From contig CAVSLC010000020.1 of the NCBI GenBank assembly GCA_963728565.1, positions 1-64,000 of the forward strand: a stretch of 64,000 bases of DNA, given 5' to 3'. The notes under the pieces were generated by a model. The model worked only from the letters and a program-made list of their open reading frames with translations. It did not search any database and had not been told where the DNA came from. The position numbers and the translations under genes are program-made. Below, one piece after another: positions 41,489-58,317 of this stretch (the stretch's first letter is position 1; each line of letters begins with the position of its first letter). The stretch is from an uncultured delta proteobacterium. Lineage in GTDB: Bacteria; Desulfobacterota; Binatia; UBA9968.

Positions 41489-41876
41489 TCAATCGCCGCC
41501 CTTCGCAGGGGTAAACTCGATCCCGCTAACGTAATTTTTTTCGCCTTTTTTGGTGTACTGCACGGTTGCCGATGACCCTAAACCGATATCGGCCATCTTT
41601 GCATCCTTAGCCTTCAGTTCGGTAACTTTTGTCTTCTGATCGAAATCAACTGTGACCAACTTGCCTTCCTTGGTGACCACGATCATATAGTTCTTTTCAG
41701 TATCCAATAAGCCTATATCGCCGGAAACTTTTTCCGCTTTGGCTTTCTCGGCCTTTTCACCTTCCGCTTTCTTTGCGCCTTCTGCCTTCTTCTCGCCTTC
41801 CTGCGCCAAAATTGGCGAGGCCAATGAGAGTGCGCACAGGATACTTAGAGCCCGCACTGCATTATTGTGTCTTCAT
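41489..41876 (-). CDS. Exported small beta-rich protein (KGGD family copy 1, signal peptide type)
   Basis: Signal ...SPILAQE, core GDIGLLDTEKNY...DIGLGSSATV...KGGD; RBS+ATG at 41876 is out of frame with the 41857 ORF, probable indel. Confidence 0.7.
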
Positions 41877-41929: not shown

Positions 41930-42412
41930 TCAATCCCCACCCTTGGCTGGGGTGAATTCCACGCTTTTGGCGATATTTTTATCGCCCTGCTTGGTATATT
42001 CAACTGTTGCTGAAGAGCCGAGTCCAATATCCGCTATCTTGCTCGGAGTAGGATCGATTTGAGTCGCTTTCGTCTTGGCATCGTAATCCAGCGTGATCAG
42101 CTTACCTTCTTTGGTTACTAGAATCAGGTAATTTTTCTCGGTATCGAGTAATCCGATATCGCCTCGCGCCTTCTCTGCCTTCGCCTTGGCTTCACCCTTA
42201 GCGTCGCCTTTGGCTTCGCCCTTTGACTCGGCCTTTGCCGTCGTAGTTTCAGCTTTCGCCTTGGACTCAGCTTTTGCTTCAGCTTTAGCCGGCGCCGCCG
42301 CAGGTGCCGCCGCGGGCTTGGAAGCCATTTCGTCTTGTGTTGAACAAGAAGAGATAGCAAAAGCCACCGCAACCGCCGCCGCAGCACTACTGATCGAAAA
42401 CAAATCCTTCAT
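41930..42412 (-). CDS. Lipoprotein, KGGD family copy 2
   Basis: Lipobox ISSC, Ala/Lys/Glu/Pro linker, same conserved core ending KGGD. Confidence 0.75.
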   Translation of the reverse strand: MKDLFSISSAAAAVAVAFAISSCSTQDEMASKPAAAPAAAPAKAEAKAESKAKAETTTAKAESKGEAKGDAKGEAKAKAEKARGDIGLLDTEKNYLILVTKEGKLITLDYDAKTKATQIDPTPSKIADIGLGSSATVEYTKQGDKNIAKSVEFTPAKGGD

Positions 42413-42645
42413 TGTTGCCTCCCTAGAACATAGTTAACCGGTAAAAATAGACTCGATAATTATCGTGAGCGTTGATTCATCTCAATACGCTATAGGTATG
42501 GTTTTAGTCGCGCCGATCCGGCTCACTGGCGGTAAATTCAAACTATAGTCTTAGGACGACACGAGCAGGATTACCACGTTGGCATGTTAGTTTATTTCGT
42601 GTATTTTCGCTGGCGTAGGCAAATGTTCCCTAAGGAGCGAGTGCA

Positions 42646-43350
42646 ATGATGCCGATCAAAGTTGTGATTGCTGATGACCACGCGCTTTTCAGAGATGGAC
42701 TCAGACGGATTCTTTCGCTCGAGAAAGACATCCTTGTCGTTGGCGAGGCGGCCAACGGTGACGATGTGATCAAAGTCGTCGAGCGGACAAAGCCGGATAT
42801 CTTGCTCCTGGATCTGAAAATGCCCAAGGGGGATGTTGTTCAAAATTTGCTGGAAGTCGGCGCTAAATACCCGTCAACGCGGGTAATCATTTTGACCGCC
42901 TTCTCGGAGGAGGAAAGTGTTTTGAATGCGGCGAAAGGCGGCGCCAAAGGTTTCGTTCCAAAGGGCGTGCCCTCCACTACCTTGCTTCAAGCAATCAAGG
43001 CGGTGCACCAGGGCGCTTCTTGGACGGATAAGGAGATACCCTCATGGGAAACTTTCGAGGAGATTGCTCAGGGCCAGTCACTTGCCCGTGAAGCGCCGAC
43101 TCAGTTCGATGAGAGTATTAGAAGTCTTACTAAACGAGAAATGGAAATACTCCGGTTGGTGGCCGAAGGTCTTACTAATGAGGAGATCGGCAAGAAAATT
43201 TTTATTAGTGAGAAGACGGTGAAGACTCACCTGACCAATATCTTCGATAAGTTGAAAGTTAATAACCGCTTCAAGGCTGCTCTGATGCTGATGGGCCAGT
43301 CAGGTGAGACTAACACACCCAATTGGACTAGAAGCGGTCGAGGCCGTTAA
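42646..43350 (+). CDS. NarL/LuxR-family response regulator
   Basis: IADDH, LLDLKMP, LTKREMEIL...GLTNEEI...ISEKTVKTHLTNIF. Confidence 0.92.
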   Translation: MMPIKVVIADDHALFRDGLRRILSLEKDILVVGEAANGDDVIKVVERTKPDILLLDLKMPKGDVVQNLLEVGAKYPSTRVIILTAFSEEESVLNAAKGGAKGFVPKGVPSTTLLQAIKAVHQGASWTDKEIPSWETFEEIAQGQSLAREAPTQFDESIRSLTKREMEILRLVAEGLTNEEIGKKIFISEKTVKTHLTNIFDKLKVNNRFKAALMLMGQSGETNTPNWTRSGRGR

Positions 43351-44641
43351 CGATCTCGAACTTCAAAAGCAATGTCTCGCGCCACGCCCTCCACGAGGGA
43401 TACTGATTACTCCCGAGGAGGGATGGCTCTTACAACGAGAGAAACTTTTGGCTTGGCTCCGGGTGGCTTTCGCCATCGTTGCGGTAGTCGTCATACAGCT
43501 TAACCCTTCGCGCACGGCGCGCTTTCCGACGCTTTCAGTTTTTTCCCTGTGGTCCTTCTTAGCCTATAGCCTGTTTATTTTAGAGTTAGTTCGCCGGCAA
43601 AAGGTAGCCTCCAAGAAGATTGGGATCATTACCACTTGCTTTGATTCAATATGGATTTTTTTGATCGTGTTTTCCACCGGCGGTACCCGGACACCATTTT
43701 TTTTCTATTTCTCGTTCCCGATCCTTGCTGCGAGCCTACGCTGGGGAACCAAAGGAAGCGTCTTGGTCGCCTTGGTCGGGGTTACTCTCTATGGTTTGAT
43801 CCGCTTTAGTATGGCTGCGGAAAGCTTTGAGACGCCGATGGGCATCGACACCTTGCTCGTGCGCAGCTTATATCTCATTGTTCTGGCCTATATCTTCGGT
43901 TTTGTCAGCGAATTCGAGAAGAGGCAGAACCAAAGGCTGCTCGCGCTCTCCGACACAGCCGTCAAGGCTGCGGCAATCCAGGAGAGGCGCAGAATCACAT
44001 ACGAACTCCACGATGGCATTCTGCAATCTCTAGCGACGATCATCCTGAGACTTGAAAGCTGTCGCAGCCGGCTTATCGACTCTCAAAAGGACTTGCGCCA
44101 GGAAATCGAAGACATTGAAAATTTCACCAGAAATTCAATGACGGAAATCAGGAATTTTCTGGCCGGCAAAGAGACCCAGCCGTTAACGCCGGGAACGCTG
44201 ATAGAAAAGCTCCGAGACGAACTTAAGTTCCTGCAACAGAGCTTGGGATTGGAAGTAATCCTCGAGAGTAAACCGGATGACCCGAGCCTGCCGGATTACA
44301 TCGAGCGCGAAGTCTATTATGCCCTACGAGAAGCATTGACCAACGTCACCAAACACTCGCATGCCTCTCGGGTTGAGATTCAAATTACCCAGGCCCCGGA
44401 CCTGCTCGAGGCATCGCTCAAGGACAACGGTGTGGGATTTGATCAAGACAATCAGAAAAACCGCAGCCGACTGGGTTTGTCGGGCATGGGAGACAGAATA
44501 AAAAAGATCGGGGGACGACTAAACATAAAGTCATCCCCCGGTTTAGGGACTATGGTTATGTTAGCCATCCCCTTGGTTGAAACAAGAAAATCTATCCCAA
44601 TCGAAACATTGTCAGACAATCAAACGGGCGCGAACTCGTGA
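43304..44641 (+). CDS. Membrane sensor histidine kinase, HisKA_3 type
   Basis: About six TM helices, ERRRITYELHD, REALTNVTKH, DNGVGF, GLSGM; start uncertain. Confidence 0.88.
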   Translation: MRLTHPIGLEAVEAVNDLELQKQCLAPRPPRGILITPEEGWLLQREKLLAWLRVAFAIVAVVVIQLNPSRTARFPTLSVFSLWSFLAYSLFILELVRRQKVASKKIGIITTCFDSIWIFLIVFSTGGTRTPFFFYFSFPILAASLRWGTKGSVLVALVGVTLYGLIRFSMAAESFETPMGIDTLLVRSLYLIVLAYIFGFVSEFEKRQNQRLLALSDTAVKAAAIQERRRITYELHDGILQSLATIILRLESCRSRLIDSQKDLRQEIEDIENFTRNSMTEIRNFLAGKETQPLTPGTLIEKLRDELKFLQQSLGLEVILESKPDDPSLPDYIEREVYYALREALTNVTKHSHASRVEIQITQAPDLLEASLKDNGVGFDQDNQKNRSRLGLSGMGDRIKKIGGRLNIKSSPGLGTMVMLAIPLVETRKSIPIETLSDNQTGANS

Positions 44642-44700
44642 CTAACTTGGACTTGGGCAAGAGCTTATTCAAGCGAGTAACCAGCCATTTTTCTCGGTAC

Positions 44701-45066
44701 TTAATCGCCACCCTTCTTAACTACATATTCAATGCCGGTGAGATAGTTCTTGTCACCTTTTTTGGTGTATGCCACCGAAGCCGCCGAACCTAGGCCGATA
44801 TCCGCCATCTTCGCGGACTTCGGCACCAGCTGTGTAACCTTAGTCTTTTCGTTGAAGTCCACCGTCACCAACTTGCCGTCTTTGGTAACGACAATCATAT
44901 AGTTCTTCTCGGTATCCAATAGCCCGATATCGCCGGCAACCTTTTCCGCCTTGGCTTTTTCTGTCTTGCCTTTTTCTGCGTTCTTTTCCTGGGCCGCTAT
45001 GGGAGGCGCGACAAATAGCGCCATGAAAATTGCCCAACCAAACATGCTCTTCGATTCAAGTCTCAT
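44701..45066 (-). CDS. Exported small protein, KGGD family copy 3
   Basis: GAGGAGG RBS, signal ...PPIAAQE, conserved core ending KGGD. Confidence 0.75.
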   Translation of the reverse strand: MRLESKSMFGWAIFMALFVAPPIAAQEKNAEKGKTEKAKAEKVAGDIGLLDTEKNYMIVVTKDGKLVTVDFNEKTKVTQLVPKSAKMADIGLGSAASVAYTKKGDKNYLTGIEYVVKKGGD

Positions 45067-45100
45067 AAAATCCCTCCTCATTAGCTCGTTCACCTGATGA

Positions 45101-45535
45101 TTAATCGCCACCTTTGGCGGCTTTGAACTCGACTCCGCTGGCGATATTCTTGTCTTTCTGTTTTGTATACGTGACCGTCGCTGACGAGCCCAGACCTACA
45201 TCCGCGATCTTAGCCGGGGTTGGAGTCACTTGCGTCACTTTGGTTTTTTGATCGAAATCCAACGTGACCAGCTTGCCTTCTTTGGTCACGAGAATCAGAT
45301 AGTTCTTCTCGGTATCGATGAGGCCGATATCGCCTTTAGCTTTTTCGGCCTTAACTTTAGCCTCAGCCTTTGCCTCGGTCTTGGCTCCGGTTTCGGCCTT
45401 AGTTTCGGCTTTAGTTGCAGGTGTCGCGGGCGCTGCCGTGGGCTTACCTACCCGCTCTTCTTGAGTTGAACACGACGCCAAAGCTAGCAGCATAGCCCCG
45501 GCAATGACTCCAGTTCCCGGAAACGCACTTTTCAT
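45101..45535 (-). CDS. Lipoprotein, KGGD family copy 4
   Basis: Lipobox LASC, low-complexity linker, conserved core ending KGGD. Confidence 0.75.
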   Translation of the reverse strand: MKSAFPGTGVIAGAMLLALASCSTQEERVGKPTAAPATPATKAETKAETGAKTEAKAEAKVKAEKAKGDIGLIDTEKNYLILVTKEGKLVTLDFDQKTKVTQVTPTPAKIADVGLGSSATVTYTKQKDKNIASGVEFKAAKGGD

Positions 45536-45862
45536 CTTTCTATCCTCCCCGTTTGTCAGACTAAAGTCGAAGTTAGTAAACCATTAGTCGTATACTTTAC
45601 GCCGTGATGCCTTGTCAAGCGATTAAGATGAACTCAAAGGAATTTTCGCGACGTATGAACCGCGCCAGGCGCCGATCTGTGCTACGGCCGGAAATGGCGC
45701 CGGCTTACGTTTAAACCAGACGAATATAACGATGTCGATGGGCGATGAATGTTAAGTCGACAGTTTGACGACGGCACCGAAGTTTCCGCTTCTGGCGATC
45801 TGCTTTAAAGTTCGCTCATGAAACAATTAAAATGTGTGGCCGCCGGCATCTTTTTGAGACAC

Positions 45863-45899
45863 AAAAAAGGGGGGAGTCCATTCTGACTCCCCCCTTTTT
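45863..45899 (-). terminator. Rho-independent terminator after barrel gene 1
   Basis: AAAAAAGGGGGGAGTC-CATTCT-GACTCCCCCCTTTTT. Confidence 0.8.
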
Positions 45900-45921
45900 C
45901 GTTCGAGAGCGGTTACACGTC

Positions 45922-47449
45922 CTAGAACGTGTAGCGCCAGTTCAGAAACAGTGTATGCCAATCCCCGCCTTTGCCATTTCGGCATCCCGTAGCAGGGGTA
46001 ACATTCGGTGTATCGCAAACTCCGAGATTATGCGCTGCCTGGTTGGCCCCGTTGCGCAAGTTCGACGCATCGTACCAGAGCCAGTTGACACCAATGCTCA
46101 TGCGCGGCGCCAGAAAGTACCACAGATCCACCTCGCGCAGGAGTATCCGGTTGCGGTGGAATTGGTTCAGCATAGCATTTCCGCCCGCAGCCACGACGCT
46201 GGCGCAAGTGATCCCGGTGTTGCCGTTACAACCCACTTCCATATCAACCCGCTCGAAGTGGGTGCCGACGAGGATCGATCCCGGAGTGTTGGCAGAGCCT
46301 GTCAGAAAACCCTTGGGGCTCCACAGAAAAAGATCATGACCGATCAACCAACTGTCACCCTTCTTGCGGCCTGGCGTGCCGCCGCGATCTTCACTTCTCT
46401 GGCGATGAGCCATGGCGCGCAACGTATAGGGACCGATGTTCCAGATAAATCCTGGCGTAAGGGCGATATGAAGGCCATCACCAATGGAGTCGGCGCCGCT
46501 GTCAAACAAGGCCTGGCGACCGCCATCGCCATGATCCTGAATGCGGTAACGGGAGCAACCGTTATCTTGGGCGCGATTATCGGCATTACAGAACCATGCG
46601 CCCATTTCGAAAGCCAGTCCGCGGATCCACATGTTCTTGGTTTGCGAGAACGGCTGGAAATTGATGTAAGTATTGAAATCCTTGCGATCGGTAAAGCTGC
46701 TTAATCCGTCGTCACCCTCGGCAATATTTCCCATACCGATATTGAAACGGCTGATCCGGCCGGGAATGCCGATACCCGAAAGTGATCTGTCGTCCCAGAA
46801 TAACGAGATACCATTGCCGGTGCGGCCGGTATTGAAACCGTTGTTGCGCGTGTGCAGATCGTACTCAGCCTGCGAGCCCGTTGCGCTGGAACCCTGGCGC
46901 GCGGTGCTCATGCTGTTCTGCACTTCCATGCCCAGCTGCACCGTCGGCAAAAATGGATTCAGGTTTTCGAGATGGATGTTAAGAGCGCCGCGCTGCAGAA
47001 TCGAGCCGACACCCGTCGCCGTCGCGTTCTTCCCATTGCCGGTGCCGAAACCGTCTAGGTCGATAGTTGCCTCGAGCTCCCACAAGCAGTTGTTGATGCA
47101 GTAAAAGAACCCCGGCCGAAAACGGCGGCCCATGATCTCGCCGTTGGTGCGGCCGACTTGGTCCCGCCCTTCTTCGAAAAGCATCCGGTAAGTAAGTTTC
47201 CAATGTCGCGCGGAAAGACCATGACTTGTCCGCCGCTTCGATGTTGAGACCGTTACCCGGACGGTAGCTAAAACTCGGCATCGCCGCTGCCGCCTCAGTT
47301 GCCTCCTTCTTCAGCTCGATCTGCTGCTCTTTTAACTGCATCAGCTCTTGCTCAAGCGCCTGGATCTTTTGATCCACGTTTTGCGCAAGGGCCGGGGCAG
47401 CCAAAAGGAACGCAGATAGCATTCCCAATCCCAAAAACCTCTTCTTCAT
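45922..47449 (-). CDS. Outer-membrane beta-barrel/porin (OprO/P-like architecture), frameshifted near 47190
   Basis: Signal peptide, N-terminal coiled coil, amphipathic beta strands, C-terminal LNWRYTF; paralog of 54416..55894. Confidence 0.65.
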
Positions 47450-47507
47450 TTTGCCTCCTTTTGCCTCCTGGTTATTTTTGGTACATCGTTAGTACTACTG
47501 ACCGCGT

Positions 47508-47557
47508 CTTTTAACTTACTCGCCAAAACCTGTCAAGCCTAAAGTTGTACTTTAGCC
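47508..47557 (-). promoter_or_regulatory. Promoter with upstream operator boxes, barrel gene 1
   Basis: Minus strand TTGACA-N17-TAAAAG; plus-strand GCCTAAAGTT (47537) and TACTTTAGCC (47548) abut the -35. Confidence 0.6.
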
Positions 47558-47787
47558 AAAGGCTGCAGGTAAGTGATTAAGACATAGGTAGTTAATTGAC
47601 CGGTTGTGCGGCCGCGATAGCGGCTTGGAGTGAGGCGAAAGGTTTAGATATAGAGTCCTTTGCGTTGAGGCACCCGCCGAACAACCGATGCGAGGAAAGA
47701 AGAGGATCATGCTGGCACATGGTTATTGAACATCTATTAATTCAAGCGCGTTGAGATTTCGCTATCTGCCGGTTAGAGTCGGCTAGT

Positions 47788-48549
47788 ATGCTGGCGAAAA
47801 GAATCATCCCATGCTTGGATGTTAAGGAAGGAAGAGTTGTCAAAGGCGTGAACTTTTTGGAACTTCGCGACGCCGGCGATCCGGTTGAGATTGCCCGCCA
47901 GTATGACAAAGAAGGAGCCGATGAACTTTGTTTTCTCGATATAACGGCGTCGCATCAACAGCGAAGAATCATTCTCGATGTCGTCGCCCACACTGCCGAA
48001 CAGGTTTTCATGCCTCTCACCGTTGGCGGTGGAATCAACACCCTGGAAGATATTCGCAATTTGCTACATGCCGGCGCCGATAAAGTTTCGATCAACACGG
48101 GAGCGGTCAATCGTCCGGAATTTGTTCGAGAGGCGGCGGAAGTATTCGGCAGCCAGTGCATCGTCGTTGCCATTGATGCCAAGCGGGTTGATGATCATTG
48201 GGAGGTCTTCACTCATGGCGGAAGGAATCCCACAGGATTGGATGCCGGTGAGTGGGCCGAGCGGATGGAAAAATTCGGCGCAGGAGAGATTCTTCTTACC
48301 AGCATGGACCGCGACGGCACCAAAGCCGGTTACGATCTTGGCTTGACCCGGACGATTTCAGACCGTCTGTCGATTCCCGTGATCGCCTCGGGCGGCGTGG
48401 GAAACTTGGATCACATCTACCAGGGATTTGCCGTGGGAAATGCCAGCGCAGCGCTGGCCGCTTCTATCTTTCACTACCGCGAATACTCAGTAATAGAATG
48501 TAAAAATTATCTGCACGACCGCGGCATTCCCGTACGGCTGCCCAATTAA
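47788..48549 (+). CDS. hisF: Imidazole glycerol phosphate synthase subunit HisF
   Basis: [45 protein letters not shown]. Confidence 0.97.
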
Positions 48550-48618
48550 TCAAACGATAAACAAGATACTTGACTCACCTAAGCTGCTATGACGGCCGGC
48601 CTGACAGGGGAACCTAGG

Positions 48619-48795
48619 TTCAATGTCTTTTCGCATTCTTGGATTCTTCTCGGGGATTCCCAATGGCGGAGCGTCGATCGAGGATCTCTCTCGCCGTTGG
48701 CGGGGGAAGTTCTGCATCATCTTTCATGCATCTGGCGCATCCCGACCAAACACCAGAAGTACTAAGCGGCAATAGAAATAGTCCAGCGAGTATTT
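48619..48795 (-). pseudogene. Possible remnant of a SHOCT-domain membrane protein
   Basis: Minus strand reads ILAGLFLLPL...PTAREILDRRSAIG.PREE, and after a shift RMRKDIE; no intact start. Confidence 0.3.
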
Positions 48796-49008
48796 TTTTT
48801 CTGATGCTTTCTTCTCCGATACTTATTTACATCACGTTTGTCTCAAGCTCGTTGCGGGGAACGGCAAGCAGTCGCTTGTCAGATCCTCGAAGCCGTCAAA
48901 CCGTGATCGCGGATCAATTTTTGGGCGGTTTTGCCATTGTAGTTCTGATCCACATCGCAGCAAGCCACTCATCAAGAGAGATTAGGTACTGGGGCGATAG
49001 ATATGTTG

Positions 49009-49380
49009 CTAGTTCAGGCCAAAAATGAAATAGCCAATTATGACGATCCCAAACACTGCTACGAGCACATTAGTATACGCTCCTATGTTGACCCAGTAGC
49101 CCTCTGGAATTTCGACCGGCTTGAGAGTCTTAAGGACACTTCGGTACTGAAGCACGGAAAGCACGGCCACCACGACACCAAAAAGAATGAAAGAAGCGCC
49201 TACCCAGAATGATCCGTTCCGCCGCGCATGATCGCCTTGAGCTAAAAGGAACATGTGCAGAAAAAGCCCGAATCGCTCTATGGCAAATCCGAACGCCATT
49301 AACGCAACCGCCGTACGCGTCCAGGCCATTAGCGTTCGTTCAGCGGCGAAGAACACTCTCGGGTCATTTAAGTCGGACAT
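49009..49380 (-). CDS. DUF202 (YidH-like) membrane protein
   Basis: DPRVFFAAERTLMAWTRT..ALMAFGF. Confidence 0.85.
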   Translation of the reverse strand: MSDLNDPRVFFAAERTLMAWTRTAVALMAFGFAIERFGLFLHMFLLAQGDHARRNGSFWVGASFILFGVVVAVLSVLQYRSVLKTLKPVEIPEGYWVNIGAYTNVLVAVFGIVIIGYFIFGLN

Positions 49381-49403
49381 AATCTCGCATTTTATACCGC
49401 TTT

Positions 49404-50597
49404 TTAAAAAAGCATTTTTTTTCTCGGCGGGTCAAAAAAAGGCGGTTTGACTGTAGAAACTCTCACCTTTTTTCGCTCGTGCTCCACCGTCGTTTCCATC
49501 TGGAGCATGGTTCCGGGCTTTGCGTGTTCGCTCTTGATGGTGGCCAAGGCGATGTATTTTTTCACACTCGGCGACCACGCGCCTGTTGTCGCTTGTCCGA
49601 CCTGAAGATCGCCCTTGTAAAGCGGAATACCGCCTCTCCAAGCGGCTGCTGGGACATGCGGCGGAAGTCCCACCTTCTGATAGAGATTTTCGTAATCGCG
49701 CCAATCGACCTCTACTCCGGTAATCTGACGTGGCGCATCCTTGCCGTCCGAATGACGCAGCTGCTTGCTACCGACGAAAAAATCCTTCGCAAGATCCACC
49801 GTCCAGCCTAACCCAATCTCGAACGGAGAGTACTTCTGCGACTCAATCAGCGCCTTTTCCGCGCCGACATAGTCGACCTCGAGTAAAATGAAACCCGCTT
49901 CGAGACGAGCGACGTCGAGCGCAAGCATTCCCGCTGCTTTAAGGCCGTATGGCTTCCCCTTATCGGTGAGGACGTCCCATACACGCTCTGCATCAGCGGC
50001 AGGCAGCCATATTTCATATCCAAGGTCACCGGTGTAACCGGTGCGGGAAATGGTGACTGGAACTCCGGCGAAATCGGCTGGCGTTAAGCGGAAAAACTTT
50101 AACTTAGCCAAATCGGCATCGACAATCTCGGTTAAAATTTTCAAGGCATTGGGTCCCTGCAACGCAAGCGCCGCTATCCGCTCCGATACCTCTTCGATCG
50201 AGACCGACATCCCGCCGGCGTTGAGCTTCAGCCAACGCAGAGCCGGGTCGGCCAAGTGAAAACGAAACTGATCCTCACCCAACCGAAACACCGTGCCGTC
50301 CTGGATGACCTTCCCTTCGCCGTCACACAAGCAACCATAAACGGCCTGCCCTACGGCGCATTTGGCAACGTCTCGCGTGATCACCCGATTGACCAGCCGC
50401 AATGCATCTTTGCCCCGGACTTCGTATTTGAACAGCGGTGAGATATCTATCAGTCCAGCGGTGTTTCGTATCGCGTGATATTCGTAATCGTGCACCACAT
50501 CGTACGAGCTGGCCGCGAAGTATCCCGACCAGGTGCGCCAATTCTGACTGATGCAGAGCGCGGACGTCCGTGAGTGGAAAGCAGTTCCAATGGGCAT
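49404..50597 (-). CDS. GcvT-like aminomethyltransferase/folate-binding protein
   Basis: DISPL, ALQGP, SRTGYTGDLGYEIW, RLEAG, PFFDP. Confidence 0.85.
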   Translation of the reverse strand: MPIGTAFHSRTSALCISQNWRTWSGYFAASSYDVVHDYEYHAIRNTAGLIDISPLFKYEVRGKDALRLVNRVITRDVAKCAVGQAVYGCLCDGEGKVIQDGTVFRLGEDQFRFHLADPALRWLKLNAGGMSVSIEEVSERIAALALQGPNALKILTEIVDADLAKLKFFRLTPADFAGVPVTISRTGYTGDLGYEIWLPAADAERVWDVLTDKGKPYGLKAAGMLALDVARLEAGFILLEVDYVGAEKALIESQKYSPFEIGLGWTVDLAKDFFVGSKQLRHSDGKDAPRQITGVEVDWRDYENLYQKVGLPPHVPAAAWRGGIPLYKGDLQVGQATTGAWSPSVKKYIALATIKSEHAKPGTMLQMETTVEHERKKVRVSTVKPPFFDPPRKKMLF

Positions 50598-50791
50598 GGG
50601 ATGGAGGGACAGGTAATTGCGGCCGAGCAGGATAGTCGCTGATACGATCGCGCTTAACTCCGGGTGTGGTTAATCCAATCTGATCGATGTTACTTCGCCG
50701 ACTGCTCCGTCTCCAAGGCCTGTGAATTAAGTCGGCTCGTTGACTTCGTAGAGAAATTACCAAATATGTTCGTTTAAGCAAATCAATTAAA

Positions 50792-52382
50792 ATGACGACT
50801 TACGATGCGATTATCATTGGCGGCGGCCATAACGGTCTTGCTGCGGCCGCTTATCTTGCCAAAGCCGGAAAAAAAGTCCTGGTCTTGGAGCGCCGGCATG
50901 TCCTGGGTGGAGCCGCGGTTACCGAAGAACTCTATCCCGGTTTCAAATATTCCGTCTGTTCCTACGTAGTAAGCCTATTGCGGCCGGAGGTGATCCAGGA
51001 GCTCGAGCTGCCCAGATATGATCTCGAGATCATTCCTCTGGATAGCACGTTTACGCCGATGCCCAACGGCGACTATCTAGCCCGCTGGGGCGATCATGCC
51101 AGAACGCGTCGTGAGATCGCGCGTCATTCCGCCATCGATGCGGAAGCCTACGAAGAGTACGGCAAGCTCATGGTGCAGATGGCCATGGCGATCAAACCGA
51201 TGCTTGGCCTGATTCCTCCCGAGCCGACTTCGTGGAATCCGAAAGAGCTTTATGGACTCGCATCGCTGGGCAATCGTTTTCGCCGGCTCGGTGACAAACT
51301 AGTCTATGACCTGGCAAAGCTCATGACCATGAGCTCCGCCGATTTTCTCGACGAGTGGTTTGAGACCGAAGTGCTCAAGGCCACCATGTCCGCCAGCGGC
51401 ATCATCGGCACTTTCATGGGGCCAAGATCACCGGGCACGGCCTACGTACTGCTGCACCACTACATGGGTGAGCTCGACGGCGCGTTTCGATCCTGGGGTT
51501 TTGCCCGCGGCGGCACGGGTTCAATCAGCCGGGTGATCGCCGAGGCGGCGCGTCACTATGGCGCGGATATCAGAACTCAGGCTGCCGTCGATCAAGTGCT
51601 GATTAAAAACGGCCGAGCGGTCGGCGTAGCGCTCAGCACAGGCGAGGAGATCAAAGCTGCCGGTAATTGTCTCCAGCGTCGATCCCAAACGAACTTTCTT
51701 GAAGATGATCGATTCCGGTCATCTGGAGACAGAGTTTTTAACCAAGATAAACCAGTTTAAAATTCGCGGCTCATCGGCAAAGGTCAATCTCTCGCTTGAT
51801 GCGCTGCCAAATTTCACCAGCCTCCCTGGTGAAGGACCGCATCTGTCGGGCGCGATCTCGATCAGCCCCAGTATCGAGTACATCGAGCGCGCCTACGATG
51901 ATGCTAAGTACGGCGACTACTCACGACGTCCCTATATGGACATCATTATTCCGTCGACTCTGGATCCTTCGATGGCGCCGCCGGGTAAGCATGTCATGTC
52001 CGTGTTCGTGCAGTATGCCCCTTATCATTTAAAGAGTGGGACCTGGGCCGAGAAGCGCGAGCAATTCGGCGATACGGTGATAGACACGATTAGCGAATAC
52101 GCTCCCAATTTCAAAAATATCATCTTGCATCGCCAAATCGTCACGCCCTGGGATCTTGAAGAGGAATTCGGCCTCACCGAAGGAAACATCTTTCAGGGCG
52201 AGCTAACCCTCGACCAACTTTTCTTTCTAAGGCCGGTACCGGGTTGGAGCAAATACCGAACGCCGATTAAGAATCTTTACATGTGCGGCGCCTGTACGCA
52301 TCCGGGTGGAGGAGTGATGGCCGCATCGGGCCGCTTGGCAGCGCTGGAGATCTTAAAAGATGTAAAAAGGAGCTTCATCTAA
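50792..52382 (+). CDS. FAD-dependent oxidoreductase, phytoene desaturase/PYROXD2 family, frameshifted near 51660
   Basis: IGGGHNGL, LERR..LGG, TPWDLE...GNIFQG, YRTP..NLYMCG..THPGGGV. Confidence 0.85.
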
Positions 52383-52388
52383 ACCGCT

Positions 52389-53993
52389 GTGCAGCACTAT
52401 GACGCGATCCTCGTCGGCGCCGGCCATAACGGACTGGTTACGGCGGCTTATTTAGCCAGATCAGGTAAAAAGGTATTGGTTTTAGAGCGCCGATCCGTTA
52501 TCGGCGGTGTCGCCGCCACCGAAGAAATCTTTCCAGCTTTCAAGTGCTCTACCGGCGCTCATCTTGCCGGGTCATTTTCCCGCGAGATCAGCGCCGAACT
52601 GGAACTTCAGAAACATGGACTAAAGCTTCTCTCTCTCGGTCCACTGGTCTTCGCACCGCAATTGGACGGCGATTCGCTGCTGATTCCCCAAGATCCGGCG
52701 AAAACCGTCGAAGAAATCTCCCGATTTTCGCGCGCGGATGGCGAAAAATTTCCTTCATTCTGCTCGCTCATTGATAAACTCGCCGGCTTCCTGCGGGAGC
52801 TAAACGGGCTTCCGCTACCCGATGGCACAAGCGCCGGCAGTTTCAAGCTTTCGGAGCTGGTTAAAGTTGGTGTGAAATTTCATCGTCTCGGCAAGAAGGA
52901 GATGTATGAGTTCCTGCGCATTCTGCCCATGAGCATTGCCGACCTGCTGGGCGAATGGTTTGAGAACGAAACGCTAAAAGCAGCCATAGCCGGGAGCGCC
53001 ATTCTGAATTCTTTCGTCGGTCCGCGGGCGCAGGGAACCGCATACGTGCTTCTGCATTATTTGTCGCGATCATCCCACGCTGGCTTTCGCTGCGCCGGCT
53101 TCGTTGCCGGCGGCATCAATCAGTTGCCGCAGGCATTGGCGCGCGCGGCTAGGCAGCATGGCGCCGAAATTCGCACCGACGCCGAAGTCGCTCGTATCAT
53201 CACCCAAAATGGCGCCGCCAAGGGCGTGGTTCTCAAGAACGGCGATGACATTTCAGCAAGCGTGATCATCTCCAACGCCGATCCAAAGCGGACTCTGCTC
53301 CATCTGGTGGAACCGACCTATCTTGATCCGCACTTCTTACTGCAAGTTAAGAACATTCGCGCGCGCGGCACCGTCGCCAAAATCAATTTCGCATTGGATA
53401 CTTTGCCTCAGTTCAAGCGCAAGGCCGGTAATGCTTCGGCGGCAGAGCTAAGCGGCATCGTTCACATCGGCCCGACCGTTGAGTGTCTCGAGCGCGCCGC
53501 TGACGATGCGAAATATGGCAGATTTTCCAAGGATCCCTTTTTAGAAATAACCATCCCTTCCCTCGTCGATCCAACGCTGGCGCCGGCTGGAAAGCACGTT
53601 ATGTCGGTGTGGATGCAATCTGCGCCGTATCACCTCAAAGAAGGCAATTGGAATGATCAGAGCCAAGCGCTGGGTGACAGTGTGACCGATATAATAGAAA
53701 ACTATGCGCCCGGATTTAAAAATTCGATCTTGCACAGGCAGGTTCTAACGCCGCTGGATTTAGAACAAACATTCGGCGTTACTGGCGGTCATCTTGACCA
53801 CGCCGAACTCGCCCTCGATCAGATCTTTTTTATGCGCCCAATCCCGGGCTGGGCGGGATACCGCACGCCGATCGACAATCTCTACTTGTGTGGCTCCGGA
53901 ACGCATCCCGGCGGCGGAATCTCGGGCCTACCCGGCTATTACGCGGCAAAAAAAATCCTACAGAACTGGCCGCGACAAACCGACCGCCCTTAA
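52389..53993 (+). CDS. Second PYROXD2/phytoene desaturase-family oxidoreductase
   Basis: VGAGHNGL, TPLDLE, YRTPIDNLYLCGSGTHPGGG; tandem paralog. Confidence 0.85.
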   Translation: MQHYDAILVGAGHNGLVTAAYLARSGKKVLVLERRSVIGGVAATEEIFPAFKCSTGAHLAGSFSREISAELELQKHGLKLLSLGPLVFAPQLDGDSLLIPQDPAKTVEEISRFSRADGEKFPSFCSLIDKLAGFLRELNGLPLPDGTSAGSFKLSELVKVGVKFHRLGKKEMYEFLRILPMSIADLLGEWFENETLKAAIAGSAILNSFVGPRAQGTAYVLLHYLSRSSHAGFRCAGFVAGGINQLPQALARAARQHGAEIRTDAEVARIITQNGAAKGVVLKNGDDISASVIISNADPKRTLLHLVEPTYLDPHFLLQVKNIRARGTVAKINFALDTLPQFKRKAGNASAAELSGIVHIGPTVECLERAADDAKYGRFSKDPFLEITIPSLVDPTLAPAGKHVMSVWMQSAPYHLKEGNWNDQSQALGDSVTDIIENYAPGFKNSILHRQVLTPLDLEQTFGVTGGHLDHAELALDQIFFMRPIPGWAGYRTPIDNLYLCGSGTHPGGGISGLPGYYAAKKILQNWPRQTDRP

Positions 53994-54245
53994 AGATTCG
54001 CGCCGATACCTCCCCAGGGATAATTAGCTAGGTCGTTTTCATTTTTGACTGCCACATACATGTCGTAGGATAAATTCTTGTGGTTTTCCGCGGATGTTCG
54101 GGCACGGTCTCCTACGCAAACCGAGTGGAAATGCCATACCCGATTCTCGGTGTCGCGCATGCAACCCACTAGAACTCGATGTTTACATGTGCCGAATGAA
54201 AAACCGTAAATCGCCAGGGGTGGGAGTGACTTCAGCAGGTTAGCT

Positions 54246-54280
54246 GCTCTGAGCGGCTGGAGGCACAGCCGCTCCAGAGC
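54246..54280. repeat. Intergenic GC-rich hairpin
   Basis: GCTCTGAGCGGCTG-loop-CAGCCGCTCCAGAGC. Confidence 0.45.
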
Positions 54281-54368
54281 AATTGAGACAAGCCATACGA
54301 GCAGTAGATGGGAAGGAGTACCCTCGCCGCTCGCAGTTGTAATGGTCGTGTCTCCGGAAACGTAGGAC

Positions 54369-54405
54369 AATAAAGCCCAGGAGCTTTGATCTCCCGGGCT
54401 TTATT
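54369..54405 (-). terminator. Terminator after barrel gene 2
   Basis: AATAAAGCCCAGGAG-loop-CTCCCGGGCTTTATT. Confidence 0.65.
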
Positions 54406-54415
54406 AAAAATGAAA

Positions 54416-55894
54416 TCAGAATGTGTATCTCCAGTTCAGAAACATATCCCACCACTCCCCACCTCGTCCGGCTACACCATTGTTCCGGATATCGAGGTTC
54501 TGCTGTACCGTCGTCGTCAGATTTTTAGCGTCGTACCACAACCAGCTTGCGCCAATGCTCATTCGCGGCGCGATGAAGTACCAGAGATCCCACTCACGCA
54601 GTATGACACGATTGCGATGGTATTGGCCGCTATTGATACTAGCCGGACACCCATCACAGGACATATTGACTCTTTCAAAGTGTGTTCCGACGAGGACCGA
54701 GCCGGTCGTGGTTGCAGAACCAGTCAAGAAGCCCTTCGGGCTCCAAAGAAAGAGATCGTGACCAATCAGCCAGCTATTGGCTCGTTTTTTACCCGGTGTA
54801 GAGGTTCGACCGATCGCGCCAGCTCCGTCCTCGCTGCGCTGAAAGCTGCCCATGGCGCGCAGCCTGTAAGGGCCAATTTGCCAGCCGAACCCGGGGGTTA
54901 AAGCGATATGGAGACCCTCGCCGATGCTGTTTGCGCCGGTATCGAAAAGCGTCTGTCGGCCCGCCCTGGAGTTGTCTCGAATACGGTAACGGCTGCAGCC
55001 GTTTTCAAAGGCACGGTCGTCCACGTTACAGAACCAAGCGGCACCTTCGAAATGAAGCCCTCGTAGCCAAGTGTTCTTCAGCTGGGAGAACGGGTCGAGT
55101 CCAAGAAAGACATTGAAATCTTTGCGGTCAGTGCGGCTGCTCAAGCCATCGTCGCCCTCGGCGATGTTGGCCATCGATAATTGAAAACGGCTAATTCGTC
55201 CCGGTATCCCAATGCCGGATAAAGATCGGTCATCCCAATTTAGAACGAGTCCATTACCGGCTCGGCCTGTGTTGTTGCCGTTATTGGCAGTGTGAAGATC
55301 GTATTCCGCCTGCGAGCCCACTGCCCCGGAACCCTGGCGTACAGTGCTCGTCGATGCACCGGATATGTCCATGCCGATTGTGACTGTAGGCAGGAAAGGA
55401 TTTAAATTTTCCGCATGCCAGTGCAGAGCCGCGCGCTGCAAGATACTGCCGAAATCATCTCCTGTAGCGTTTTTACCGGTGCCGCCGCCGAACCCGTCGA
55501 GATCGATGGCCGCCTCGAGTTCCCACAAGCAGTTGTTGATGCAGTAGAAGAACGACGGTCTGAAGCGCCGGCCCTCAATCTCTCCGTTGGTACGACCTAT
55601 CGAATCTTTCCCGCTCAAAAAGTTCATGCGGAAATGCGATTCCAAACTTGCGCGAAAGGACCAAGCTTTATCTGCTGCTTCGACATTCAACCCGTTGCCC
55701 GGACGATAGCTAAAGCTCGGCATGGCGGCTGCCGCCTCGGTGGCTTCTTTCTTTAATTCGAGTTGCTGTGCTTCCAATTGCGAGAGTCTAGCCCGAAGTT
55801 CGCTAATCTCGTCATCCACGTTTTGTGCTAATACTGCTCCGCCAACGAACAAGAGGCTGAAAAACACCGTTAGCTTTAAAGCAATTTTTTCCAT
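54416..55894 (-). CDS. Outer-membrane beta-barrel/porin paralog 2
   Basis: Signal peptide AVLA-Q, coiled coil, long blocks identical to 45922..47449, C-terminal LNWRYTF. Confidence 0.7.
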   Translation of the reverse strand: MEKIALKLTVFFSLLFVGGAVLAQNVDDEISELRARLSQLEAQQLELKKEATEAAAAMPSFSYRPGNGLNVEAADKAWSFRASLESHFRMNFLSGKDSIGRTNGEIEGRRFRPSFFYCINNCLWELEAAIDLDGFGGGTGKNATGDDFGSILQRAALHWHAENLNPFLPTVTIGMDISGASTSTVRQGSGAVGSQAEYDLHTANNGNNTGRAGNGLVLNWDDRSLSGIGIPGRISRFQLSMANIAEGDDGLSSRTDRKDFNVFLGLDPFSQLKNTWLRGLHFEGAAWFCNVDDRAFENGCSRYRIRDNSRAGRQTLFDTGANSIGEGLHIALTPGFGWQIGPYRLRAMGSFQRSEDGAGAIGRTSTPGKKRANSWLIGHDLFLWSPKGFLTGSATTTGSVLVGTHFERVNMSCDGCPASINSGQYHRNRVILREWDLWYFIAPRMSIGASWLWYDAKNLTTTVQQNLDIRNNGVAGRGGEWWDMFLNWRYTF

Positions 55895-55955
55895 CTTCCC
55901 TCCTCTTACATCTATAGTCTTATCCTAGACCAGCTAAAAGTCGTATTAACATCGC

Positions 55956-56008
55956 CTTTTAGCCCCAGTATTGGTATATGTCAAGACTAAAGTTTTAAGA
56001 CTTTAGGC
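55956..56008 (-). promoter_or_regulatory. Promoter with upstream operator boxes, barrel gene 2
   Basis: Minus strand TTGACA-N17-TAAAAG; plus-strand GACTAAAGTT (55985) and GACTTTAGGC (55999) abut the -35. Confidence 0.6.
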
Positions 56009-56244
56009 CTGTTCCGGTGATTCGTTTACGGATTGCTGGAGCCTGGGGCTTTCCAGGGCTGCTTCTGGCTACTCGGTTTGTTGCGCGATTGGATGCTGTA
56101 AGAGAAAGCCTGAGACTGAAAGGCTTATTGATTACGCGACTCTAGGCGAGCTCAACAACAACTACTGAAGAGGAATTTGTGAATCAGTTAACCAACGGGC
56201 TATTGCGGTGAATCAGCATTGACTTACTAAGACTTTGGTATTAA

Positions 56245-57627
56245 ATGCCTCAGCATCAGCCTTCGAAGCTATTTATGTCTCGCATTCTGTTTATCGACAA
56301 GGAAGATCGCTCGCGAGCTCTACTGCAGTGTCGGCTCAAGGCTGACGTAAAAATTAACTTCGCCCCTTCTCTGGAAGCAGCATGGGAGAAGCTAAGCACT
56401 CGCAAGTTCGATCTGATCTTGTGGAACACAGTTAATGATCCGGCAGCAGAGATAAATCTCAGCGAGACTCTAAAGCTATTTTCAACCAAGGTTTGCGGCA
56501 GCAGGATTGTTGTCTTCAGTGACTCTGAGGCATTGCAGAGGCGGTTTCGCTGCGGCAATGTTCAAGTCGACAATCTGCCGACAAACGGAGAAGATTTACT
56601 AGCGCTAGTGCGGAGCAATCTTCCGCTCAAGGTGCCATCCGAGAGAAACAACTCCACCGCTGATAAGTTTGCCCTGCCAATAGAGTTTGAAGGGATTATA
56701 GCCGTGAGTCTGCCGATGGGAGCGGTGCTCCGGCGCGCGATCGAGGCGGCCAATGTCGATATGCCGGTTCTGATCACCGGCGAAACCGGCACAGGCAAAG
56801 ATCTTATCGCCGCAGCGATTCACAAACGAAGTCGACGCAAGGACAACCCTTACATCATTGTCAACACCGGTGCGATGTCGCCGCAGCTCATAGCCAGCGA
56901 GATCTTCGGTCACGAAAAAGGCGCGTTTACCGGGGCGGAGGACGCGCACCAGGGGATTTTCGAACAAGCTCAGGGAGGCACTGTTTTTCTCGATGAAATC
57001 GCCACTATGGACGAAAAGACTCAGGTGAGTTTGCTCCGAGTATTGGAAGAGAAAACATTTTATCGAGTCGGAGGAATCAAGAAATTCCGCGCCGACGTTC
57101 GCATCATCGCCGCCACGAACGAAGATCTGGAAAAGAAGGTCACTGAGAAACGCTTTCGCGAGGATCTCTTTTATCGGCTAAACGTTCTGCATATAAGCGT
57201 CCCGCCGTTGCGCGAGCGGCCCGGCGCCGTCACCGTGCTGACGGATCATTTTCTTTCGCACTTTGCCCCGATATTCGGAAAAGAGGTTGAGAGGGTCGCG
57301 CCGGAAACCTACCGGATGCTGCGACGCTACCGCTGGCCGGGGAACGTCCGCGAGCTTAAGAACGTTATTCAAGCAGCGCTCTTGATGCTCGATGGCAATG
57401 AACTAACACCGGAATGCATCCCGGAACGGATCCGGAATGCCGCTTTAGGAGGCGAAGAGCGTGGCGAACCGACTTGCTCATTTCGAGTCGGTACCTCGCT
57501 GCATACCGTAGAGAAGGAACTCATTCGGATGACACTCATCTTTGCCGGCGGAAACAAGAAGCTAGCGGCAAGCATTCTCGGGATCAGCCGGCGTGCTCTT
57601 TACAACAAGCTCAAGACTCATAATTAA
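56245..57627 (+). CDS. Sigma54-dependent activator with degenerate receiver domain
   Basis: [27 protein letters not shown], Fis HTH; receiver FDLILWN lacks the phospho-Asp; start may be 56275. Confidence 0.85.
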   Translation: MPQHQPSKLFMSRILFIDKEDRSRALLQCRLKADVKINFAPSLEAAWEKLSTRKFDLILWNTVNDPAAEINLSETLKLFSTKVCGSRIVVFSDSEALQRRFRCGNVQVDNLPTNGEDLLALVRSNLPLKVPSERNNSTADKFALPIEFEGIIAVSLPMGAVLRRAIEAANVDMPVLITGETGTGKDLIAAAIHKRSRRKDNPYIIVNTGAMSPQLIASEIFGHEKGAFTGAEDAHQGIFEQAQGGTVFLDEIATMDEKTQVSLLRVLEEKTFYRVGGIKKFRADVRIIAATNEDLEKKVTEKRFREDLFYRLNVLHISVPPLRERPGAVTVLTDHFLSHFAPIFGKEVERVAPETYRMLRRYRWPGNVRELKNVIQAALLMLDGNELTPECIPERIRNAALGGEERGEPTCSFRVGTSLHTVEKELIRMTLIFAGGNKKLAASILGISRRALYNKLKTHN

Positions 57628-57853: not shown

Positions 57854-57868
57854 TGGTTTCGATCTTGC
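57854..57868 (+). promoter_or_regulatory. Putative sigma54 promoter
   Basis: TGGTTTCGATCTTGC (GG-N10-GC) just upstream of the GGAGG RBS of 57895. Confidence 0.5.
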
Positions 57869-57894
57869 TCAAGAGCTTGAACCCGGAGGATTTA

Positions 57895-58317
57895 ATGAAT
57901 AGAGCCACGGCAACGATACAATCGAACCCGATCAACTCGTTCTTCGAGCCTGACATCCTTACTTCAGATCAGTATTTCAAACATTATCGCCACAAGGCAC
58001 ATTTCGATCCGGAAGAGAAACTTATGTTTGCGGTTCTGGCTGACGCAATCGAGTGCTTTCAAAAATATTATGGCGCCAACACCCACCGACGCCGCAGGCT
58101 CTTTACGGAAGCTGAAGCCTGGATCTCAACGCCAGACAACACCTGGCCCTATTCGTTTGAGAATATCTGCGAAGCATTAAATATCGATCCAAACTACCTG
58201 CGCCTGGGTTTGACGCGGTGGCGGATCCAGCACGAGGCGCAGAGAAACACCGGCTTATGCATCCGTAAGACGCTGCGCTACCAAAATACAGTAAAACAGA
58301 ATCGAGTGTGCATCTAA
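57895..58317 (+). CDS. Hypothetical protein, possibly with a C-terminal HTH-like segment
   Basis: Strong RBS; PEEKLMFAVLADAIECF...EAEAWI...FENICEALNIDPNYLR. Confidence 0.7.
   Translation: MNRATATIQSNPINSFFEPDILTSDQYFKHYRHKAHFDPEEKLMFAVLADAIECFQKYYGANTHRRRRLFTEAEAWISTPDNTWPYSFENICEALNIDPNYLRLGLTRWRIQHEAQRNTGLCIRKTLRYQNTVKQNRVCI

What the first reader, a model, noticed from the sequence alone, without database searches (positions are those of the whole stretch)
42541..56240. Shared GACTWWAGTC-like operator and identical promoter architecture link both barrels, the KGGD genes and the TCS into a candidate regulon
Seen: both barrel genes have minus-strand TTGACA-N17-TAAAAG (47508-47536; 55956-55984) with two boxes directly upstream of the -35 (GCCTAAAGTT/TACTTTAGCC; GACTAAAGTT/GACTTTAGGC). 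A perfect GACTAAAGTC lies at 45559-45568 upstream of KGGD pair B (TTGACA at 45613-45618). AACTATAGTC lies at 42541-42550 between pair A and the RR, and GACTTTGGTA at 56231 before the sigma54 activator. Knowledge: NarL-family regulators such as DosR/DevR and VraR recognise sites with an ACT-WW-AGT core and have an EKTVK-type recognition helix like this RR. Inference: the local RR controls the whole envelope module.
Basis: partly seen in the sequence, partly recalled or inferred. Interest (0 to 1): 0.7.

Follow-up and report, generated by a model that had tools for sequence, protein, structure and literature searches.

The report
Binatia porin and lipoprotein regulon operator
A 16-base palindrome is conserved in front of porin, small secreted-protein and regulator genes across an uncultured soil bacterial family (Binatia), and the neighbouring two-component regulator likely binds it, probably switching some gene copies on and their near-twin copies off depending on where the site sits in the promoter.

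Summary
The motif is real but wider than reported: TAnGACT-nn-AGTCnTA, a 16-bp 7-2-7 palindrome found de novo in other Binatia genera. A matrix trained without this genus places five module sites among the top six of the 4.5-Mb genome, including a third porin on another contig. It recurs in 40 of 43 held-out KGGD-A/RR regions and 17 of 19 KGGD-B promoters. The adjacent RR is the genome's only LuxR-type HTH over cut-off and carries LiaR's K-x-x-K-T contact residues; the box fits LiaR's published T(X)4C(X)4G(X)4A. Binding is inferred, not shown. Architecture is not identical: a distal box plus weak proximal box (KGGD-A, third porin; likely activation), boxes over the -10/start (KGGD-B; likely repression), a box in the spacer (sigma54 activator; likely repression), and a box overlapping -35 (both window porins; sign unclear). 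Corrections: barrel 1's second box is not a site, two boxes were missed, the centre is not always WW, and spacing ties site 42538 to KGGD-A, not RR autoregulation. Barrels are predicted OprO/OprP-like porins; signal and KGGD function are unknown. A new small regulon of a known kind. An earlier scan note covered the same KGGD genes.

The parts
42538..42553 (.). Strong 16-bp operator (TAAGACTATAGTTTGA read on minus), centre 60 bp upstream of the KGGD-A -35
   Evidence: score 16.6, rank 2 in genome; composite with proximal box is the top hit of the genome; 40 of 43 held-out orthologous regions score >=12
42486..42501 (-). Degenerate proximal box (E2; CCATACCTATAGCGTA, A-tract upstream) abutting the predicted weak -35 TTGAGA (42480-42485); predicted -10 TAATTA 42457-42462
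   Evidence: conserved in 52 distinct promoters; matrix mean -2.1 in this register versus -13 to -35 in ten others and -26 background; promoter hexamers inferred
41930..42412 (-). KGGD-A1: lipoprotein-type paralogue (SSC motif, Ala/Lys/Pro linker, about 80-aa beta domain)
   Evidence: no Pfam hit
41489..41876 (-). KGGD-A2: secreted paralogue (start inferred; ORF finder gives 41857)
   Evidence: a close strain's contig has one base fewer at 41862
42646..43350 (+). NarL/LiaR-type response regulator (REC + GerE HTH; D56; K190, K193, T194), predicted binder; own promoter TTGGCA-N17-TATTTT at 42579-42607
43304..44641 (+). HisKA_3 histidine kinase with an intramembrane sensor domain (5 hydropathy peaks; GG-x-x-T-PF loop)
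44701..45066 (-). KGGD-B2: secreted paralogue
   Evidence: 3908 homologues, no informative names
45101..45535 (-). KGGD-B1: lipoprotein-type paralogue
45556..45571 (.).
   Evidence: score 11.0; two-box layout in 24 of 29 orthologous promoters
45577..45592 (.).
   Evidence: score 10.4; a box 33-34 bp after TTGACA in 28 of 29 orthologous promoters
45922..47449 (-). Porin 1 (OprO/OprP-like by its paralogue's model), frame break near 47189 in this assembly
47534..47549 (.). Weak operator overlapping the -35 of porin 1 by 3 bp
   Evidence: score 8.5, rank 144; same register in 10 of 80 porin promoters
54416..55894 (-). Porin 2, predicted OprO/OprP-like beta-barrel with N-terminal coiled coil
   Evidence: AlphaFold pLDDT 76; Foldseek OprO E 5.4e-18, OprP E 1.2e-17, TM 0.61-0.63
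55907..55922 (.).
   Evidence: score 15.7, rank 3; 19.4 in the G004 orthologue
55982..56011 (.). Two overlapping operators (55982-55997 and 55996-56011); the first overlaps the -35 of porin 2 by 3 bp
   Evidence: scores 13.3 and 14.8
56228..56243 (.). Operator in the predicted -35/-10 spacer (TTGACT 56219, TAAATG 56242) of the sigma54-activator gene
   Evidence: score 15.1, rank 5; proximal box in 7 of the 12 closest orthologues; exact 16-mers before homologues in G082 and G083
56275..57627 (+). Sigma54-dependent activator (AAA+, Fis-type HTH); start codon inferred

Best explanation
The element is a conserved 16-bp 7-2-7 operator, TAnGACT-nn-AGTCnTA, likely bound by the phosphorylated dimer of the adjacent NarL/LiaR-type response regulator, which would run a small cell-envelope regulon of porins, KGGD secreted proteins and a sigma54 activator. 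Shown: the motif, its conservation and four fixed promoter geometries. Inferred (about 0.85): this RR is the binder. Inferred from position (about 0.65): RR~P activates promoters with a strong box 60 (or 50) bp upstream of a weak -35 plus a degenerate box abutting it (KGGD-A pair, third porin on contig C5). It represses promoters with a consensus -35 whose -10/start or spacer is covered (KGGD-B pair, sigma54 activator, some porins). One signal would thus swap paralogue sets, much as OmpR does with OmpC and OmpF. The sign at the two window porins (box overlapping TTGACA by 3 bp) is unresolved. The kinase most likely senses something within or at the inner membrane; the signal is unknown.
For: De novo: GAC-N4-GTC in 20 of 34 training regions versus 1.7 in shuffles; Gibbs consensus cTAaGACTatAGTCtTAg from non-own genera. 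Own-genome scan: ranks 1, 2, 3, 5, 6 are module promoters, rank 1 being the unlinked third porin; 6 of 9 intergenic sites >=13 in 664 kb lie in 1.7 kb of module DNA. Held out: 40 of 43, 17 of 19. Exact 16-mer: 32 sites in 25 of 90 family genomes versus 3 for the reversed control. Of the 27 sites inspected, 19 are at KGGD/RR, 2 at porins, 3 at sigma54 activators and 3 at other secreted proteins. The same 59-61 bp geometry occurs in non-homologous genes: 40 of 53 KGGD-A promoters and 24 of 80 porin promoters (57-62 bp window). Binder: only GerE HTH over cut-off in G000; helix identical in 54 of 58 orthologues. The best PDB hit is E. faecalis LiaR with KTVKTH aligned; its Lys174/Lys177/Thr178 read T(X)4C(X)4G(X)4A (PMC4482077 passages), and the consensus fits this. 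In a second family a 45-53% identical RR lies divergent to a porin homologue with the same layout in 15 of 27 loci. Two near-complete genomes without a related HTH keep the core porin promoter but lack the box. NarL activates from 7-2-7 sites abutting -35 plus an upstream site (PMC7419079 passages).
Against: No binding, start-site or expression data; promoter hexamers are inferred and most lack the final T of -10. With 1 mismatch the pattern is not enriched genome-wide over the reversed control (G000: 0 versus 2). 31 of 80 porin promoters fit no class and have no box >=11. 6 of 10 genomes where the RR was not found still have a porin box >=10, against 30 of 39 with the RR. All six are assemblies of 450-870 contigs, and one shows part of the RR at a contig end, but this test gives no support. 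The two RR-less genomes are one genus, so one event. G000 is 80.6% complete, so another HTH could be missing. E2 was located with a pattern containing TAC..GTA, which biases its score. Relatives are not independent. Boxes in the second family are degenerate (scores -23 to 12.5 at a fixed 60-bp offset).
Confidence: 0.8

Rival explanations
1. The RR binds the 16-bp box, but all promoters respond in the same direction, or the proximal element E2 is bound by a second factor or read by RNA polymerase, so there is no paralogue swap.
For: E2 departs from the box at 5-6 of 12 defined positions and has its own A-tract and TAC-N7-GTA symmetry; signs are inferred only from position; start sites are unmapped.
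Against: E2 scores as a box in exactly one register; one relative has a much better box in that register directly before TTGACA (score 11.5); LiaR and DosR use a strong site plus a dissimilar weak site; boxes over -10 and in the spacer are conserved in 28 of 29 and 7 of 12 orthologues.
Confidence: 0.25
2. A different transcription factor (for example an unlinked one, or the sigma54 activator) binds the palindrome and the TCS is only a neighbour.
For: No direct binding data; boxes persist in 6 of 10 fragmented genomes where the RR was not found; G000 is incomplete.
Against: 7-2-7 geometry and the T..C..G..A pattern match the NarL/LiaR fold; the RR stays adjacent to box-bearing targets in two families with different neighbours; the sigma54 activator was found in only 29 of 90 genomes versus 62 of 90 for the RR HTH.
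Confidence: 0.12
3. The matches are chance or leftovers of gene and promoter duplication with no shared regulator.
Against: Between the two barrel promoters the box plus -35 is 17 of 19 identical while the spacer is 2 of 17 and the upstream DNA 16 of 47; information content is 1.2-2.0 bits at most box columns and 0-0.6 in flanks; the same geometry serves non-homologous genes.
Confidence: 0.02

Closest known systems
Enterococcus faecalis LiaR (LiaFSR envelope-stress system; S. aureus VraR)
   Same: Best PDB sequence hit for the DNA-binding domain (E 4.6e-14); same K-x-x-K-T contact triad; box fits T(X)4C(X)4G(X)4A; strong site plus dissimilar secondary site; HisKA_3 kinase partner.
   Different: Diderm host; kinase has about 5-6 membrane helices and no LiaF-like gene lies next to it in the window; targets are porins and KGGD proteins, not LiaXYZ; the kinase scores 87 bits on NCBIfam LiaS against a cut-off of 450.
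E. coli NarL (7-2-7 sites; yeaR and ogt promoters)
   Same: 7-2-7 inverted repeat; a site abutting -35 plus an upstream site; acts as activator or repressor (PMC7419079).
   Different: Different heptamer; the distal site is about 52 or 42 bp from the proximal one rather than at -77.5/-44.5; kinase is not NarX/NarQ (matches only the cytoplasmic part).
Mycobacterial DosR/DevR and Streptomyces OsdR
   Same: NarL family; high-affinity plus vicinal low-affinity site; targets clustered round the TCS.
   Different: DosR's third contact is Asn183, here Thr194; sensor is not a heme kinase; the OsdR consensus AGGGCCGATCGGCCCT differs.
EnvZ/OmpR reciprocal control of OmpC and OmpF
   Same: One two-component system proposed to regulate paralogous porins in opposite directions (PMC10269588 passage).
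   Different: OmpR is a winged-helix regulator on direct repeats (recalled); here a NarL-type HTH on palindromes, with opposite control only inferred and extended to secreted-protein paralogues.
Streptomyces MacRS and proteobacterial RegB/RegA
   Same: The kinase matches MacS (residues 50-423, E 1.8e-24) and ActS/PrrB/RegB (48-398, E 8.8e-10) over its membrane domain; MacR targets are membrane proteins and lipoproteins (PMC9739842 passage).
   Different: Both scores are far below cut-off; RegB's GGXXNPF Asn is absent in all 48 orthologous loops read and no Gln lies seven residues after the helix-1 Arg.

Membership tests
NarL/FixJ-family response regulator | Receiver domain with phospho-Asp plus GerE/LuxR HTH | tested here: met
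   PF00072 and PF00196 over cut-off; D56
NarL/FixJ-family response regulator | Cognate HisKA_3 kinase adjacent | tested here: met
   PF07730 + PF02518; RR-HK order conserved
NarL-type operator | 7-2-7 inverted repeat | tested here: met
   de novo palindrome; column information; definition in PMC7419079
NarL-type operator | Bound by the phosphorylated regulator | not testable with these tools
   needs EMSA, footprint or DAP-seq
LiaR/VraR DNA recognition | Lys174/Lys177/Thr178 equivalents and T(X)4C(X)4G(X)4A site | tested here: met
   K190/K193/T194 align; 5 of 8 window boxes have all four bases and 8 of 8 have C6 and G11
LiaFSR/VraTSR system | LiaS-type kinase and liaF/vraT in the operon | tested here: not met
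   LiaS model 87 bits versus cut-off 450, cytoplasmic part only; only RR and HK between the KGGD pairs
DosR/DevR regulon | Lys179/Lys182/Asn183 triad | tested here: not met
   third residue is Thr in 57 of 58 orthologues and Ala in one; triad from PMC4082495
RegB/PrrB quinone-sensing kinase | GGXXNPF loop with R31 and Q38 in helix 1 | tested here: not met
   Thr (47) or Ala (1) in place of Asn in 48 loops; Arg conserved, no Gln seven residues on
OprO/OprP porin family (targets) | Porin beta-barrel fold | tested here: met
   Foldseek E 5.4e-18, TM 0.61-0.63, 14% identity
OprO/OprP porin family (targets) | Sequence family membership and phosphate selectivity (arginine ladder) | tested here: inconclusive
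   no Pfam porin hit for the window protein; 1 of 20 members weakly hits OMP_b-brl_2; ladder residues not examined
OB-fold periplasmic proteins (DUF5666/CusF-like; KGGD targets) | Five-stranded OB barrel | tested here: inconclusive
   model pLDDT 51 with five strands and one short helix; Foldseek best E 0.9, CusF/SilF/CspA rows at E 1.3-2.4; VIA best Z 4.1
Autoregulated TCS | Operator at a constrained position of the RR promoter | tested here: inconclusive
   distance to the RR -35 ranges 25-69 bp without phasing, against fixed 59-61 or 48-52 bp to the KGGD-A -35

The most novel reading that the evidence does not exclude
One NarL/LiaR-type regulator acts as a paralogue toggle for the Binatia envelope. 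It turns on one lipoprotein-plus-secreted KGGD pair and one porin class while turning off the near-identical pair on the other side of the TCS and other porin copies, with the sign set only by operator position. Porin copies change promoter class repeatedly, independent of protein ancestry (class A needs 14 changes among 17 rows, shuffled mean 15.0, quick tree; 8 genomes hold porins of class A plus another class). The KGGD proteins could themselves be the feedback input to the intramembrane kinase.
Probability: 0.3. Interest if true: 0.6.

Novelty: new member of a known kind. Interest (0 to 1): 0.42.

Why it matters
It gives a directly testable regulator-operator-target set in an abundant, uncultured soil lineage. 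I found no such regulon in print: searches listed none, and the Binatota genome survey PMC8262859 has 0 occurrences of porin, two-component, response regulator or regulon in its main text (supplements not read). It ties two uncharacterised families (KGGD proteins, 3908 homologues; OprO/P-like porins with no Pfam hit) to one envelope response. If the inferred signs hold, it is an independent OmpC/OmpF-like paralogue switch built on a different regulator fold. The mechanism type itself is textbook.

Tried and rejected
Whole-genome enrichment of the 1-mismatch pattern: none over the reversed control. The two other exact 10-mers of the genome (C5:281449, C10:64837) are not among the 42 best matrix hits. 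A composite scan for further class-A promoters in G000 found only KGGD-A and the C5 porin (49.9 and 48.0; next 14.4). Other high single hits (C19:58599, C6:69428, C10:45379) were read but not tested for conservation. RR presence versus box presence across MAGs: uninformative (the tabulation failed and was redone in 92). Promoter class as a porin clade: not seen (quick tree of 59 rows; proteins under 370 aa left out). Covariation of helix and box in the second family: suggestive (TACAAC half-sites with R/H/T at the first Lys) but too degenerate to call, and TACAAC also occurs in this family. KGGD fold: no significant match. ESM Atlas gave no answer. RegB-type quinone sensing: motif not met. Public RNA runs are contigs of related strains and cannot give start sites or levels; none of the three covered 47536-47772, which proves nothing. 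The E2 pattern was found in 7 of 10 family genomes and 1 of 140 others sampled in the class. The MacRS primary paper was not held. No complex prediction was run.
Full report
Observation. As a 10-mer the motif is weak: 3 exact copies in the 4.53-Mb genome, 177 with one mismatch, 3293 with two. Both barrel-1 boxes and the 56231 site need two mismatches. I therefore tested it by comparison across genomes.

Context. The window's RR has 95-99% identical relatives in records titled Candidatus Binatia. The layout KGGD pair A (minus), RR, kinase (plus), KGGD pair B (minus) is conserved across many genera of the family. The RR is REC plus GerE HTH and the kinase is HisKA_3 with a membrane sensor domain. 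The KGGD proteins are four paralogues, two lipoprotein-type and two secreted, with no Pfam hit. Porin 2 folds as a beta-barrel (pLDDT 76) whose best matches are OprO and OprP (E 5.4e-18 and 1.2e-17, TM 0.61-0.63). A third porin paralogue lies on contig C5.

The real motif. In 34 upstream regions from genomes outside the window's genus, the top spaced palindrome was GAC-N4-GTC (20 of 34, 1.7 in shuffles). Gibbs sampling on 32 of them (two dropped: one other-family porin, one RR paralogue) gave cTAaGACTatAGTCtTAg, i.e. TAnGACT-nn-AGTCnTA. I built a matrix from 30 of the 32 sites, leaving out two forced non-matches, and ran it over the window's genome. Rank 1 is the promoter of the unlinked C5 porin, then 42537 (2), 55906 (3), 56227 (5), 55995 (6), 55981 (12), 45555 (42), 45576 (62) and 47533 (144). 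Six of the 9 intergenic sites scoring 13 or more in 664 kb fall in 1.7 kb of module promoters.

Conservation outside the training set. Held-out regions (not training, not own genus, but related): 40 of 43 between KGGD-A and the RR score 12 or more, and 17 of 19 before KGGD-B. The exact 16-mer occurs 32 times in 25 of 90 family genomes, against 3 for the reversed control. Of the 27 sites inspected, 19 lie at KGGD/RR promoters, 2 at porins, 3 at sigma54-activator homologues and 3 before other secreted proteins. Against: with one mismatch the pattern is not enriched genome-wide, and 31 of 80 porin promoters fit no class and have no box of 11 or more (86 rows, 6 dropped as truncated). The regulon is small.

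Not duplication. Aligned on TTGACA, the two window porin promoters share 17 of 19 bases over box plus -35, but only 2 of 17 in the spacer and 16 of 47 upstream. The same long-range geometry also serves unrelated genes.

Four geometries (hexamers inferred). (A) A strong box centred 59-61 bp upstream of a weak -35 (40 of 53 KGGD-A promoters; 48-52 bp in 11), plus a conserved element abutting the -35. That element scores like a degenerate box only in that register (mean -2.1; other registers -13 to -35; background -26), though it was located with a pattern that biases this. Twenty-four of 80 porin promoters, including C5, have the same layout, and a composite scan finds only these two promoters in the genome. 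(B) A box overlapping consensus TTGACA by 3 bp: both window porins, 10 of 80 overall. (C) A box over the -10 and start (28 of 29 KGGD-B promoters), with a second one 20-25 bp downstream in 24 of 29; 5 of 80 porins have a similar layout. (D) A box in the spacer of the sigma54-activator promoter, with a proximal box in 7 of the 12 closest orthologues and 5 of 16 distant ones. The 42538 box lies 25-69 bp from the RR's own -35 with no phasing, so it belongs to KGGD-A; autoregulation is neither supported nor excluded.

Who binds. The RR is the only GerE-type HTH over cut-off in this 80.6% complete genome, and its helix is identical in 54 of 58 orthologues. Its best PDB match is the E. faecalis LiaR DNA-binding domain, KTVKTH aligned (entries 4WUL and 4WU4 are named LiaR in PMC4482077). 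In that paper (passages read) Lys174, Lys177 and Thr178 contact a T(X)4C(X)4G(X)4A site. The consensus here fits exactly, and all 8 window boxes keep C6 and G11. DosR has Asn183 at the third position (PMC4082495 passage). In a second family of the order, an RR of about 50% identity lies divergent to a porin homologue with layout A in 15 of 27 loci, with a more degenerate box. Two near-complete genomes of one genus lack a related HTH and keep the core porin promoter without the box. Against: 6 of 10 genomes where the RR was not found still have a porin box, versus 30 of 39 with it; all six are fragmented.

Mechanism. Inferred: the kinase phosphorylates D56, and the dimer binds 7-2-7 boxes. Layout A resembles NarL activation at ogt and yeaR (site abutting -35 plus an upstream site; PMC7419079 passages) and the strong-plus-weak site pairs of LiaR and DosR. 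Layouts C and D cover polymerase contacts and would repress (established principle, recalled). Layout B could go either way. So RR~P would raise pair A and class-A porins and lower pair B and the sigma54 activator. Eight genomes hold a class-A porin together with a class B or C one, and class does not follow the porin tree (quick tree). This parallels reciprocal OmpC/OmpF control (PMC10269588 passage). The kinase's membrane domain resembles MacS and RegB below cut-off but lacks RegB's Asn and Gln quinone residues, so the signal is open; an envelope or membrane cue is my best guess from the targets. RNA-run contigs of related strains cover the KGGD, RR, kinase and porin genes but cannot give starts or levels.

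Literature. Searches (listings only) showed no Binatia regulon paper; PMC8262859 has no main-text mention of porins, two-component systems or regulons (supplements not read). PMC5069765, PMC3000548 and PMC9739842 were read as passages.

Verdict. A real, conserved operator and a likely small envelope regulon of the adjacent NarL/LiaR-type system: a new member of a known kind, with an untested paralogue-toggle twist.

Noticed in passing
window 47189, 41862, 43369-43404, about 51660 and about 59450: Several genes have frame breaks or odd starts (porin 1, KGGD-A2, kinase start, phytoene-desaturase-like oxidoreductase, TctC). Contigs of related strains have one base fewer at 47189 (three RNA runs), 41862 and 43369/43404, so these are probably assembly indels; porin 1 is also split in G005.
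   Followed up: partly
G000:C5:284421-287574: Third porin paralogue (also frame-broken) with the genome's best box, followed by two TPR-type lipoprotein-like genes; similar genes follow the porin in G020 (Pfam TPR) and in the second family.
   Followed up: partly
L267:1138-1422, L191:2896-3171, L189:2247-3241, L187:2393-2845, L193:1549-1989: Strong boxes lie before other small Lys-rich secreted proteins, two with weak DUF5666/CusF hits, and before TctC and ABC substrate-binding proteins (L188, L192, L286), suggesting a wider periplasmic regulon in some genera.
   Followed up: partly
window 57865-58317: A 150-aa protein of no known family downstream of the sigma54 activator has at least 7 paralogous matches in the genome, one next to another sigma54 activator on C10.
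   Followed up: no
G000:C19:58599, C6:69428, C10:45379: Intergenic boxes scoring 13.9-15.6 before unrelated genes (a four-gene cluster after a sigma54 activator; an NADH-dehydrogenase-like gene; a DUF883-like protein by my reading); conservation untested.
   Followed up: no
promoters at 45589, 47508, 55956, 56242 and orthologues: Most predicted -10 hexamers in this regulon (TATACG, TAAAAG, TAAATG, TACAAC) lack the final T, whereas the RR promoter has it; CarD-type dependence is a recalled possibility, not tested.
   Followed up: no
L175, L176, L177 (G028, G035, G037): In part of the second family an unrelated ORF of 330-390 aa (integrase-like by my reading, not scanned) separates the RR from a divergent pair of porins, and one porin of each pair keeps the class-A promoter.
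   Followed up: partly
G000:C1:80242-80934: A paralogue of the kinase's cytoplasmic part (38% identity) with no adjacent NarL-type regulator found.
   Followed up: no
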